DNA of 64,000 nt from positions 327,803 to 391,802 of the forward strand of contig NMRA01000024.1 of NCBI GenBank assembly GCA_002633005.1, in the 5' to 3' direction. The notes beneath the pieces were generated by a model. It did not search any database. It saw only the letters and a list, made by a program, of their open reading frames with translations, and was not told where the DNA came from. The translations under genes were made by a program, and so were the position numbers. This document shows positions 14,084 through 23,000 of this stretch, one piece after another (the first letter of the stretch is position 1; the number at the start of each line of letters is the position of its first letter). This stretch comes from Phoronis australis. Its lineage: Eukaryota > Animalia > Phoronida.

Positions 14084-17000
14084 CTGGAAGTAGAGAATAT
14101 TGACGTCATGCAAGGCAATTGATACACGTAGATGAACTACTGAAAACCTAAACTGAAAACATCACCTATTGGGGGGGGGGCTTGTGTAAAGAGATTCTTG
14201 ATCAAATTAGATATCGGGCAATAATAAAAAGCCGTGTCTTCAGTGATTAAATATAACTATTGACTGGCAAAATGTTAGTTTTCAGACTGGAAAAATGAGA
14301 TAATGACTGAGGTGGAGCTTAAGTCATTATCAAATTTTCTTGTGTGTTATGTAATCCATGGAAGGTGGCTGTGTTTGGTCTTTCGATTGTATGTCAGTCA
14401 GTCAGTAAACCACCAGGTTTCAACTAAAAACAATGCGGAGACAATTGATAAAACTTACAGGAGAGGATCTGGAATAGATAAAAGGTACAATCACATTTTA
14501 GGAATGATACAATGTTTTGCAACCACACAGCAGCCGATTAAATGCTAATACATTGAGAAAAATCAATTTATTTTTGTCAAAACAAAATTAAAGTAAATGC
14601 CATCGTGAGTTGTCACAAAAAGGCTCGGCGTGCATGCGCCAAAGTTTGTCCACATGACACAAGTTGAAAGTCGGTTTAACATTTTGCACATCTTTCACTC
14701 CAATAGCGTAATGGACAGAATTGCGATGTCTTGATAGAGGTTTGCACTCTCCAAGTGCTTTAGAAAGGTATTAAAAAGAATGGCACGACTGTTCTAATTC
14801 GTGCACTCGGTCCTTCAAATAAGTCAGATTTTACTAATATGAATTTCACCGTACTATGGCTTGAAAAGACTGAACATTCACTGTATAACCTGTCCTAAAA
14901 ACATGAAAAATGTTAGAACACCAAGGAAATTCATTCATCCGGAACACATTTCACAGTTGATTTATTACAGACGTTGTTGGAGCAGCCTATTAATCGTCAT
15001 AACATCAGGAATAATCTATAATTAAAGAGTTGTACAGGAAGTTTTTTATTTGCTATACCCATTCGAAGGAGACAGGTTGTCCAGGTAACGTAATGTAATA
15101 AATCAACAGTAGTCCGGATGAAAAGATAATTTTTTATCGCAAAATGTAACAGCAATAATCTATCTGGCAGGGATTCTTCAGAGGGTTGTAGCTGCTGCTT
15201 GCAAATTATTTCATTAGTATAGATAACAGCTATTTCCATGAAAGCACTTGGTACAATCAATTCACTGCCACAAATTCTGACACGGAGAACACAGCGAAAT
15301 AATTTTGATATCCAAATCATACAAGAGACAATGTGCACACACAAAGATTTTGAAAAATTGCCAAGGTCCTCGTCATTAAATATCAGGAGACATTTTGCAA
15401 CAAAAAGTATGCTAATTTCAAAATGATTAACACCCTAAACTGCGTCCGATTCGCTTCAGTTTTTAGCCTTAACTTTGACAATGCTACTGTAGCCTGTTAA
15501 GACGCAGTACCTCCAAAGCATAAACTGAACAAGGTGGATATTACACGAAGCGCTGGCCTAGACGCATTTGAGCAACTAACCACCCTCAACAAATTATCCA
15601 GCCCGAGGCGACACGATTTTTCCGCGATACCGACAGGAACCACGACAACGTGCGTAACTCTTAAGGGAAGCTGGGCAACAACTGAATGCACATTTGAGGA
15701 TCATCAAATGCTATGTGTAACATACCACTCTTGATGGTGTCTTTTCCGCCAGAGAGAGCACCAACTGGTAGCAAACCATTAGGAGTAAGACCCTTGAGCT
15801 GGAGAACTGTTTCACTCTCCTCCCTGCAACACCACAGCAAAACGCTCAATGTTCACATGCCACAATTATGTCACTTGAAACATCAACAGTGTCAGAGTCA
15901 AAGAAAGTGAACAACAGCTGTTCAGGAAACACCATACAGGCACACACAAGTCAATACTGGGAGACGGAAGGTTTCTCTGTGGTCAACAGTTTATTTTAGT
16001 CTTGATGAATGTCCAATAACAAGAATGAAAAGCTAGATTGTTCCACTGTAGGATTCTTAAATATGCACTTCTAATATATAGCCAATCTATTCACAAATTG
16101 TGTGTATGGAAGAAGCGAAAACATAAACACCGGCTTACCTGAGAACAGTGAACACACGGGCCATTTTCCCGATAGCTCTAATCTTGTTCCTAATGACTTC
16201 TTTACGTGCGGCAACTGCGCCACCTGTGGAAAACAGGTGGAAAATATCAGCGGCCTCTAACATCTCAAGGCAAAACAGGGTTCACCAACGTTACGAGAAG
16301 AAAACACAGAACTGCAAAATGAATACTGAAGTTATCCACCAGAAAAGACTCAAGAGAAAGCATTTTTACAGACGATAGTCGAACTAGATCAACAGATGCC
16401 TTAGATGGGCATTCTTTCAAATTCACATGTTCACGCATTCACTCACGCACGCCATCACATCAAAACAGTATACTACCAGTGACTGTGTAGATGTGCATTG
16501 CTAATACATCTTGCTGTCAAAACAGGTGTTAGTCTCCCTACTCATCTACAAAAGAACTAATTAGAAACACAAACACACCTTGACGTAACCACACGCCTAA
16601 ATTCATAAGAAACAAACGAACTAGAACCTATCCCGAACCAAAGGTGCGTAAAGTCGAGGCATTGCAAAGTTCAACACGGCACTTCTAACTTAGGCGCAAT
16701 GCACCATGCAAGAGACACATCGACACACGCAGCCGTGTCCTCGTTTAATAACACACGCAAAACAGAACGAAGGTAAGAGGAACTAAGTGTTCAAACTAAG
16801 GAGAGATTGGTAAAATCTGATTGAACAGCACAGAGCCGGTGGCCGGCTGTAAAAAAACGTTCACGAACACGTCCAGTACCTGACATGTCCACGTCACCTC
16901 CTGCGGGAAGAAGAAACAAGACAGAAATGTTATCACTAGGCAGCAGATGTACTACACCAACCAACAGGTGAGGAGGTGAATGGTCTTAGTAGGCAGGCAA

Positions 17001-20000: not shown

Positions 20001-23000
20001 CGGTTTGAGTGTTGCCCAGTAACACTACATCTGGATCAGTTCTTTTCATTCGTTTATGTTGGCATAGCGTGCACTTGATGTCAAAGTAACTTGACCCTGG
20101 CTCAAGTGATGAACGTAAAAATTAACATATGACTAGTGTGTGAAATAGCACTCTAGTATAGGTGTACTACTGAATTACCGGTTGCATTACATTCTATTTC
20201 ATAAAAAGGGTTGAACCTGCAGTATAATGTAAAAGGATTTCACATAAATTTAATTTGAAACAAATAGCTATTTTGATTTCTATCAAAAATCACAGTTTTT
20301 TGCAGACAATCTTGGTTTTAAATCACGCAATTATATTTTTTCTTACTGGATGAAATTAAATCTCGCGTCAAATTTATACTGCAATGCAAGGCCCAATTCA
20401 AATCACTCTTCAGAGTGAAACATTTGTCTGAAAATACAGCTTCTAAGTATTGATAATTGTTACAACACAGTCAAACCTAATAATAAAATTTGCCTGATCG
20501 GGTGTACAAGTGGAGAACATGCAAGACTAGTGGTCCCATATATGTACAAGTTCATTGACACAGTCCCATTCATCTGAAACAGAAAATCAGTCACGAATTC
20601 CCCAAAACTTTATAAATTAGCTGCCAAACCTATCCAACATCCAAAAGTTCGCCACACAACACTCGCCGAACATTTCCATGTTGTTTCAAACTAATGAGTT
20701 TGGAGCATAACTGATGATGTCAGTCAACCGCTCTAAGATGACCTGGTAGGCTAGCTTTACGTCGCCAAAAATAAATTGTGTGACCTGCTTACAAAAACGT
20801 ATTTAAAGTTTTACTACTTAGCAGTTTGGGCAAGACTTCAAACTTTGCAAGAGAGTATTATGAGAAAATGTTCATTAATTAGAATGTTTTCTGAAAGCAC
20901 AATCTCTCAATGTCAAAATGGTGTCTTATATTTTTTACTAGAGCTTTCACATTTTTCACGTTCCATTCAAAAACAAGTCACACTCCCCTTAGAAAAGTAT
21001 AGAACACTGAACATATTGTGAGATTAAAAAATCCGTTTCAGTTATGGAAAATCACAGACAGTTTTTGAGCATTTGTATCAAAGTTTGATACTAAAAATTT
21101 GATGAACACTGATCAAAGGACTTTTGCCTTATCGATGTACCATTCACAAAACACCATTTTTATGACAAGTGCATGGCACGTACTGTTGAGAATGACTCAA
21201 ATAGATTTGCCTTGAATCTTAGGGTCTGAAAATATATACTTTATGGTTTGATAGTCGCTAGTTATTTCACAAGAAAAAAATTTAATGATAGATACACATA
21301 ACCTTAAAGTGACAAAATTGGCGAGAAAATTGGTCGAGACCAGCCTCCTGATGGATTCAAACTCACGACCTCAGTGCTCCGAGTCGACACTTTGCCAGCC
21401 GAGCTAAATCCCACTCAGCAAGTAGATAACAATTTAAGTGATATTTCAAGAGTATTTAATTGATAGTCACCATTTTGGATTTCAGTCAATGTCTGTCAGA
21501 AAAGAGCGAGAATTGGCGATTTGTAATAATATCACAAAACACAACAGATTTTGTTGTTGTGTAATTCTGGTCAATTCCACCCACCAATAATCCCGTTTTA
21601 GGCCCTAAAACCGACCACGGCCCCACAAGGCCACACAATGATTCACATGTAGTGCAATTTCACTTCTGAACTTAACCTGTCAACATAAAATCAGCATTCA
21701 ACAACCGGAGTGTATGTCTTTCGCTGGGCACTTTTTCCACAATCAGCGTGTAGCTACCTTAAAACGTTCAAGCAAAATCATACCAGGCGAGCATTCTCTC
21801 AGTCGGGTTAATCCTGTTGGACATCATGAAAAACACACACACACACACACACACACACACACCCGCACTCGTGTGCAAGAGGAGCAGGCATGCTGGATTA
21901 CGTGACTTGCCTGAACACCGACTCTCCCTAATTAGATCACAATACTAACAAGCACTGCTCAACAACGACAGAAGTTCCTCCTACTCTGCCTGTCCGTGAG
22001 AAAGCATTTCTAGTTATTAATGCGATCAGATTCCCATAGAGGGTCGTGCGAAGTCAGTCTTAACGCTCCTAATACAACACAATATATATATTATATATAT
22101 ATAGGCGTACGAGCATCGTCAACTACTCAGCTCTTACCTTTGAACCGAGTCCCTCGACCAAAACGTTTTTTGATATCTGCAAAGTTCACTCGCCCGTTCA
22201 CTTCAAATTTTCCCAAATCAACAGAACAACACATGAAAATGCTGTCGAAGACACTTGACAAAATTGAATGAAGTGATGAGTGATGATCATGACGATCATG
22301 TTGAAGACAGGAAATGACGACAGTTACGATGACTTAAATGATGATGATAACGAAGACAAAGGCAGACTGATAATCATGATGATACAGATGAAGATGATTG
22401 TTGAAATGAAGATGAACGGTGAAGATTGATGAAGACAAAAACGATAAAAAAAAAAAAACAGGCATGCAGATGGTAAACCCAGAAGAGCGGCGAGAATATC
22501 GGTTAATAAAAGAGCAGTCATCAGGAAAACTCGAACAATCCAAGAATTATCAATAAAAATTCGTAACGCTCGAGGAGATATATCTACATACCACACAATT
22601 TCAGAAAATACTCTAAAAATGATGGAGAAAAGCAGAATCGAAAAATTGCTGTCACAGTGCCACGTTGACCTCAATTTTTACGAATAACAGTAAGCTTCCA
22701 TCTATTTTAAGAGTTATGTGTGGGTATATATCACAAAGATGAGCGATGAGACCTGTTGCGTTCAAAGAAAAAAAAATTAAGAAAAAAAAAACAACAAAAA
22801 CTCAACATACTTGGTAAAATTTTATTTTACCAAGTATTAACATTAACCAGGGAACATGGAGCAGTTCTCACCCTGCCTACAATCAAGGAACAAAATGAAA
22901 TAAAAAAATGTGTGAACACCATCACAAGAACCCAACACTGTATTTTTAACAATTAAAAAAACGATAACCGAAGAACAAAAAAGATTGGCAACCAAAATTA

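What the first reader, a model, noticed from the sequence alone, without database searches (positions are those of the whole stretch)
16579..22176. Array of at least eight candidate in-frame microexons in the calcineurin A regulatory linker
Seen: the 8.7-kb phase-1 intron between exon 10 (CnB-binding helix) and exon 11 (calmodulin-binding site) contains AG-exon-GT cassettes, mostly with good pyrimidine tracts. They lie at 22176-22138 (39 nt, [13 protein letters not shown]), 21813-21784 (30, [10 protein letters not shown]), 19911-19885 (27, ESRRSVVDD), 17365-17351 (15, GQSRY), 17257-17255 (3), 17189-17172 (18, GHSCRC), 16900-16880 (21, GGDVDMS) and 16596-16579 (18, GVWLRQ). All are 3n long and internally stop-free in the correct phase, and five are packed into 800 bp. 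Known: this linker is disordered and couples CaM binding to activation, and from memory vertebrate PPP3CC has one small alternative exon here. Inference: one invertebrate CnA gene may use a combinatorial microexon cassette (basic, acidic, Cys- or Ser-bearing inserts) to diversify Ca2+/CaM tuning or localisation instead of gene paralogs. Caveat: I selected candidates by eye, partly on frame, so enrichment over chance is untested.
Basis: partly seen in the sequence, partly recalled or inferred. Interest (0 to 1): 0.85.

Follow-up and report, generated by a model that had tools for sequence, protein, structure and literature searches.

The report
Calcineurin hinge microexons, two confirmed
An invertebrate calcineurin gene splices two of the eight proposed tiny exons into the hinge just before its calmodulin-binding site, one of them together with a shifted splice site, which likely adjusts how the enzyme is switched on; the other six show no RNA support, and optional exons at this hinge are already known from mice and from gene models of many animals.

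Summary
All eight cassettes are in the sequence as stated. RNA reads of the same species label confirm two. The 27-nt exon takes 45 of 74, 25 of 56 and 0 of 72 exon-10 junction reads in three runs; the 15-nt exon takes 3, 4 and 7. The other six reach no listed junction (under 3 reads per run). It is used in 71 of 77 reads with the 27-nt exon and 3 of 53 without, so the event swaps three small residues for nine charged ones. Enrichment of strong cassettes in this intron is modest and depends on the model. Three unseen candidates (21, 18, 3 nt) have the gene's best intronic splice signals and stay plausible. Only 160 of 256 combinations are open, because two exon pairs make a stop. The site is a known hotspot: mouse Ppp3cb/cc exon 10a, and public mollusc, hemichordate and insect isoforms with stacked inserts. 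This scan found an arthropod microexon at this hinge before, on other DNA (e1-7831770). Verdict: a new member of a known kind; an eight-exon array is unproven.

The parts
49958..50006 (-). Likely first coding exon of the calcineurin A gene
   Evidence: tblastn of mollusc N-termini; ATG and phase-1 GT donor give an open 486-aa frame
24928..25005 (-). Exon 10 (end of CnB-binding helix, start of linker LR1)
   Evidence: junction 25005-25728 in all four runs
16224..24927 (-). 8704-nt phase-1 intron; unspliced RNA is more abundant here than in the flanking introns
   Evidence: depth about 10-11 in the part after the 27-nt exon against 1.5-2.3 in the last intron
22138..22176 (-). 39-nt candidate: unsupported; strong donor, poor acceptor
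   Evidence: no listed junction; acceptor score -3.4; 7 of 17 pyrimidines
21784..21813 (-). 30-nt candidate: unsupported; sits just after a GT microsatellite
   Evidence: no listed junction
19885..19911 (-). 27-nt microexon (ESRRSVVDD): real, sample-dependent
   Evidence: exon10 to microexon 45/25/0 reads; microexon to exon 11 54/23/0 reads in X3/X4/X5; X3 repeated
17351..17365 (-). 15-nt microexon (GQSRY): real, minor
   Evidence: its letters stand between exon 10 and exon 11 in 3/4/7 reads, plus 0/3/4 reads joining it to exon 11; no listed change in organism B over 17331-17369
17255..17257 (-). 3-nt candidate: unproven, strong intronic signals
   Evidence: rank 11, 7 and 3 of 1687; branch-point-like motif at -24; no listed junction
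17172..17189 (-). 18-nt candidate a (Cys-rich): unproven, strong intronic signals
   Evidence: rank 3, 2 and 1 of 1687; branch-point-like motif at -43; no listed junction
16880..16900 (-). 21-nt candidate: unproven; strongest acceptor in the gene under the generic model, with a rival donor after 3 nt
   Evidence: acceptor rank 1, 1 and 2 of 1687; acceptor score above all constitutive ones; no listed junction
16579..16596 (-). 18-nt candidate b: unsupported
   Evidence: rank 20, 34 and 112; no listed junction
16215..16223 (-). 9-nt segment between two tandem acceptors of exon 11 (16223 and 16214); dropped when the 27-nt exon is included
   Evidence: joints at 16214 with canonical ends; Fisher p=2e-25 for X3+X4
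16139..16223 (-). Exon 11 (calmodulin-binding region), single copy in the window

Best explanation
This intron is an alternative-splicing site of calcineurin A in which a 27-nt and a 15-nt microexon are spliced in, the 27-nt exon almost always together with a second exon-11 acceptor 9 nt downstream, and the resulting linker variants likely tune how fast or how readily calmodulin switches the phosphatase on in particular cell types. Shown: both microexons, the second acceptor, their coupling, and a 61/45/0% difference between samples. Computed from sequence: the default linker (19 residues, net charge -7) becomes 25 residues (-8) with the 27-nt swap, 24 (-6) with the 15-nt exon, and 16 (-7) with the distal acceptor alone. 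Inferred: that the sample difference is tissue regulation, that the variants change activation, and that one to three of the strong-signal candidates (21, 18a, 3 nt) are used in tissues not sampled. The 39-, 30- and 18b-nt candidates are more likely plain intron.
For: Junction reads with canonical ends in three raw-read runs of one study (X3 and X5 repeated). Coupling 50:4 against 3:23 in X3 and 21:2 against 0:27 in X4. Unspliced RNA steps up 4.0- and 3.5-fold after the 27-nt exon in the two runs that include it, but 1.6-fold in the run that skips it, as expected if exon 10 joins the microexon first. The same junction carries optional pieces in public isoforms of abalone, four scallops, mussels, oysters, clams, octopus, a chiton, hemichordates and a fly. 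[quoted passage not shown] Charges in the regulatory domain outside the calmodulin-binding region appear to affect the association rate (PMC7456046 passage).
Against: Tissue labels are not shown and X3-X5 come from one study. X3 and X4 share several variants that X5 lacks (for example 18224, 18991, 22358), so genotype could explain the 27-nt difference and the coupling. Neither peptide has a significant match among 83 distinct long-linker cores (null fraction 0.07 and 0.27). Conservation of the 15-nt exon in organism B is not significant (24-nt window p=0.07; longest unchanged run p=0.29). The 27-nt joint is flagged 'between: not known' by the tool. The net charge changes by only 1. The mouse experiment redirected LR1 and LR2 exons together, so no LR1-only effect is shown.
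Confidence: 0.65

Rival explanations
1. One reading: most or all eight cassettes are real and are combined freely in tissues not sampled, such as neurons.
For: The 21-, 18a- and 3-nt acceptors rank in the top 11 of 1687 under all three models. Cell-restricted exons would fall under the 3-read threshold; inclusion up to about 9-11% per sample is not excluded. X1 contigs break 1 nt after exon 10 and 2 nt before exon 11, which fits a further path that starts with G. Relatives stack two to four pieces here.
Against: 0 listed junctions for 6 of 8 among 202 counted exon-10 junction reads. No read joining two cassettes was listed. 96 of 256 combinations carry a stop. The 39- and 18b-nt acceptors are weak. 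The X1 break also fits the 15-nt exon with a retained intron. Non-3n cassettes score as well in this intron (21492, 22876, 20216).
Confidence: 0.12
2. The microexons are lineage-specific, nearly neutral by-products in a linker that tolerates inserts; the 27-nt exon and the acceptor shift follow a haplotype rather than a regulatory programme.
For: Insert peptides differ between lineages and none of 14 short peptide probes occurs in 302 fetched proteins. Variant patterns separate X5 from X3 and X4. The 27-nt donor scores poorly.
Against: 45-61% inclusion with 92% coupling is far above splicing noise. X5 also uses the distal acceptor without the exon (12 of 65 direct reads). Both exon-11 starts occur in other lophotrochozoans. 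Scallops keep the same two inserts across four genera.
Confidence: 0.18
3. The main role is at RNA level: a slowly spliced intron, with stop-making exon pairs, sets the amount of calcineurin mRNA.
For: Sense-strand intron depth is about a tenth of exon depth and 4-7 times that of the last intron. Intron pieces appear in X1 and X2 contigs. Two exon pairs make TGA.
Against: Both proven exons keep the frame. Slow splicing is also expected of any long intron with weak alternative sites (established knowledge). No stop-bearing junction was listed.
Confidence: 0.05

Closest known systems
Mouse Ppp3cb and Ppp3cc exon 10a (Brinegar et al. 2017, PMC5577920; passages and section 10 read)
   Same: [quoted passage not shown]
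   Different: One exon per gene in mouse; here at least two, plus a coupled 9-nt acceptor shift. Sequence homology untested: none of the 27 vertebrate cluster members listed showed a 9-residue LR1 insert (26 readable).
LR1/LR2 splice variants of calcineurin A, including C. elegans tax-6 (Rudgalvyte and Glauser 2025, PMC12503234; abstract, first part of Introduction, section 6 and passages read)
   Same: Names LR1 as a spliced linker; tax-6, a single gene, has an optional 9-nt exon 11 (its place in LR1 is my inference from two nematode proteins)
   Different: The paper studies LR2, says conservation across species was largely unknown, and has no hit for 'mollus' or 'microexon'. It places the LR1 exon in all three human paralogs, whereas Brinegar says mouse Ppp3ca lacks it.
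Public (RefSeq-type) isoform sets of mollusc, hemichordate and insect calcineurin A
   Same: Optional pieces at the same junction, in combinations: abalone 3 and 4 residues in 4 forms; scallops 6 and 17 residues; Mytilus 4, 6 and 15; Crassostrea virginica three pieces; Hermetia 2 and 3 residues in 4 forms
   Different: Predicted models, whose exon structure I could not see. Peptides are unrelated to this gene's by test. Mytilus and oysters show two forms of the exon-11 start; the window has one copy.

Membership tests
Alternative frame-preserving microexon (3-27 nt; size limit recalled) | Length 3-27 nt, multiple of 3, AG..GT | tested here: met
   6 of 8 are 27 nt or shorter; all are 3n
Alternative frame-preserving microexon (3-27 nt; size limit recalled) | Inclusion and skipping both seen in RNA: 27-nt and 15-nt exons | tested here: met
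Alternative frame-preserving microexon (3-27 nt; size limit recalled) | Inclusion seen in RNA: 39, 30, 3, 18a, 21 and 18b | tested here: inconclusive
   0 of 6 listed; 56-74 exon-10 junction reads per run, threshold 3, tissues unknown
Vertebrate Ppp3cb/Ppp3cc exon 10a | Position between the CnB-binding helix and the calmodulin-binding region | tested here: met
Vertebrate Ppp3cb/Ppp3cc exon 10a | Sequence homology to exon 10a | not tested
   no identified exon-10a protein among those fetched; the paper's figure is not held
Vertebrate Ppp3cb/Ppp3cc exon 10a | Adult-muscle-specific inclusion | not testable with these tools
   run labels are coded
SRRM4/eMIC-dependent neural microexons | UGC motif close upstream of the acceptor (feature recalled) | tested here: inconclusive
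   3 of 8 candidates against 6 of 12 constitutive exons
SRRM4/eMIC-dependent neural microexons | Neuron-specific inclusion that depends on the eMIC protein | not testable with these tools
   no tissue labels, no knock-down data
Combinatorial microexon array (free stacking) | Molecules that carry two or more cassettes | tested here: not met
   no cassette-to-cassette joint listed; short pairs may escape the tool

The most novel reading that the evidence does not exclude
The calcineurin LR1 hinge is a splicing-controlled dial across invertebrates. This gene carries one of its richest versions: five or more microexons, including a Cys-rich and a single-codon one kept for rare cell types, and a switch in which a 27-nt exon dictates the choice of a tandem acceptor, so that a glycine spacer is replaced by a charged, serine-bearing motif next to the calmodulin-binding helix.
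Probability: 0.2. Interest if true: 0.62.

Novelty: new member of a known kind. Interest (0 to 1): 0.4.

Why it matters
Calcineurin is a central calcium sensor, and the LR1 linker has not been tested alone in the papers I read. This gene gives four read-supported linker variants (five counting a rare one) that can be expressed and compared directly. It also gives a clean case of microexon inclusion coupled to tandem-acceptor choice. The survey of public isoforms suggests stacked LR1 inserts are common in invertebrates; my nine literature searches found no paper describing this for molluscs or annelids. The interest is limited because the site is known and each lineage seems to have its own inserts.

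Tried and rejected
No whole genome is held, so paralog number and genome-wide splice models were untestable. The run search listed no holder on record as RNA; the three RNA runs came by species label. The first protein search returned only 23 distant proteins, at most 75% identical. The fragment alignment A1 was wrong and was not used. The likeness of the 39-nt peptide to a Babylonia insert and of the 15-nt peptide to bivalve four-residue inserts did not pass a null test (fractions 0.08 and 0.27), so I do not claim homology. A quick tree of 63 proteins put the gene among annelid, mollusc and unnamed sequences, in no strongly supported group (careful search unfinished); I take it only as a likely lophotrochozoan. 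80 metagenome loci gave no DNA like this intron or its cassettes. No second calmodulin-binding exon is in the window. No cassette lies inside a repeat shared within the window. The organism B contig cannot be read for the 3-nt donor: 6 of its 33 differences are unlisted and probably lie near piece ends. I ran no structure or complex prediction, because the regulatory domain is disordered and unseen in crystal structures. PMC6317854 is not held; PMC12626424 and PMC8583826 gave reference-list hits only. No supplements were read; exon 10a sequences and isoform alignments in the supplements of PMC5577920 and PMC12503234 bear on the homology question.
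Full report
Gene and observation. The minus strand holds a calcineurin A gene. 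Twelve exons were placed by motifs and splice sites and a first exon at 50006-49958 by tblastn. Together they give an open 486-residue frame. The protein without exon 1 is 88-89% identical to its best mollusc, annelid and unnamed matches. A quick tree places it in no strongly supported group, so I call it a likely lophotrochozoan. The intron between exons 10 and 11 is 24927-16224. All eight cassettes are present with the stated lengths and translations.

More than chance? I scored 1687 acceptors in all 12 introns, each with its best donor within 3-51 nt, under three models (generic matrices recalled). This intron is 25.5% of intron length and holds 11, 8 and 9 of the top 20 (p=0.005, 0.11, 0.046). 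Block shuffles reached the observed count in 0, 8 and 3 of 60. The 3n excess is clear only under the generic model (7 of 11 against 0 of 9). The acceptors at 16900, 17189 and 17257 rank in the top 11 under every model. The two exons later proven rank 9/71/22 (15 nt) and 33/73/57 (27 nt). So the score is a weak guide in both directions.

RNA evidence. Three raw-read runs with the same species label (X3-X5, one study, about 18-19% of each read) and one contig set (X1) were laid on 13900-25900. Junctions from exon 10, in X3/X4/X5: to exon 11 at 16223, 23/27/53; to a second acceptor at 16214, 3/0/12; to the 27-nt exon, 45/25/0; through the 15-nt exon to exon 11, 3/4/7. That is 61%, 45% and 0% for the 27-nt exon and 4%, 7% and 10% for the 15-nt exon. 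A further 0/3/4 reads join the 15-nt exon to exon 11 with a long upstream side. No joint was listed for the 39-, 30-, 3-, 18a-, 21- or 18b-nt candidates. The table needs 3 reads in a run, and 7 rows of the letters-between table were hidden. Inclusion up to about 9-11% in a sample is therefore not excluded. The second lay (16100-20300; X1, X2, X3, X5) repeated the X3 and X5 joints and added none.

Exon 11 has two acceptors 9 nt apart. With the 27-nt exon the distal one is used 50:4 in X3 and 21:2 in X4; without it, 3:23 and 0:27 (Fisher p=2e-25 pooled). The protein change is thus a swap: three small residues out, nine mostly charged residues in. The tool flags the 27-nt joints 'between: not known', but their ends are canonical and 57 X3 reads continue from the exon into exon 10 with full agreement. 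Unspliced sense RNA is about 10-11 deep after the 27-nt exon, 2.8-2.9 before it in X3 and X4, 6.5 in X5, and 1.5-2.3 in the last intron (bins with repeats dropped). This fits stepwise splicing in which exon 10 joins the microexon first (inference). Caveat: X3 and X4 share variants that X5 lacks, so genotype and tissue cannot be separated.

Limits on combination. The 3-nt and 18a exons end in T and the 21-nt exon starts with GA, so either pair makes a stop; 160 of 256 combinations stay open. The 16900 acceptor also has a better-scoring donor after 3 nt, so its exon length is uncertain.

Other species. A contig of a related organism (X2) covers 17227-17553 with 33 differences. None of the 27 listed falls in 17331-17369, which spans the 15-nt exon and its splice sites. 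This is not significant on its own (p=0.07 for exon plus sites; p=0.29 for the longest run). X2's main contig joins exon 10 to exon 11 directly. X1 contigs break 1 nt after exon 10 and 2 nt before exon 11, an indirect sign of an unresolved alternative path. Among 302 fetched proteins none holds any of 14 short probes from seven candidates, and no candidate peptide beat a null of intronic peptides against 83 long-linker cores (best fractions 0.07 and 0.08). The junction itself varies almost everywhere. Abalone has two short pieces in four forms, four scallop genera share a 6- and a 17-residue piece, and Mytilus and Crassostrea virginica each show three pieces. Clams, octopus, a chiton, hemichordates and the fly Hermetia also carry optional pieces. 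These are predicted isoforms, at most 15 shown per cluster, and I did not see their exon structure.

Mechanism. The linker joins the CnB-binding helix to the calmodulin-binding region inside a disordered regulatory domain. A review reports that charges outside the binding region appear to influence the calmodulin association rate and keep the N-terminal half extended (PMC7456046, passages). The read-supported variants are 16, 19, 24 and 25 residues long (28 for a rare form) with net charge -6 to -8. I infer that length, flexibility and new serines tune activation in a cell-type-dependent way; I put about 0.5 on a measurable biochemical effect. In mouse muscle, forcing all four calcineurin A exons (LR1 and LR2 together) to the skipped state prolonged relaxation (PMC5577920, section 10); LR1 was not isolated.

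Comparison and verdict. The 27-nt exon works like mouse Ppp3cb/Ppp3cc exon 10a (same place and length), but homology is untested. PMC12503234 names LR1 and LR2, notes a 9-nt optional exon in C. elegans tax-6, and studies LR2. Nine searches found no paper on stacked LR1 microexons in molluscs or annelids; the library lacks most subscription journals. My odds that each cassette is a real exon: 27 nt 0.99, 15 nt 0.95, 16900 acceptor 0.55, 18a 0.5, 3 nt 0.4, 18b 0.2, 39 nt 0.2, 30 nt 0.15. This is a new member of a known kind, with one feature worth testing (the coupled swap). Interest 0.4.

Noticed in passing
window 14459-14468 (minus): A 10-nt AG..GTAAGT cassette with good signals in the last intron (the LR2 position, where vertebrates and, per e1-9946081 and P0043, octopus have an optional exon). 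It is not 3n and no junction was listed.
   Followed up: partly
window 17397: Five X4 molecules end here and an X1 contig starts here, 32 nt upstream of the 15-nt exon; there is no splice signal. Chance or a cut site; unexplained.
   Followed up: no
window 16898-16900 (minus): The strongest acceptor of the gene has a better-scoring donor after 3 nt than after 21 nt; both keep the frame.
   Followed up: partly
window 19486-19569, 21500-21556, 23676-23709, 24039-24059: Short stretches that collect many reads from elsewhere, probably interspersed repeats; they inflate depth in those bins.
   Followed up: partly
window about 14700-15100: Reads on the opposite strand with four fixed differences near 14800; probably a repeat transcribed elsewhere.
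   Followed up: no
window 36291-36304 (minus): A well-scoring acceptor in intron 2 with donors after 9 nt and 14 nt; outside the regions laid with reads.
   Followed up: no
proteins P0202/P0207 (Mytilus) and P0188/P0189 (oysters): Two different starts of the calmodulin-binding exon occur within these bivalves, in Mytilus with changed residues in the binding helix; this suggests duplicated, mutually exclusive exons.
   Followed up: partly
window 12470-13955 (minus): About 1.5 kb of 3' UTR ending near an AATAAA at about 12474; held at 0.79 of words by X1 and 0.12 by X2.
   Followed up: no
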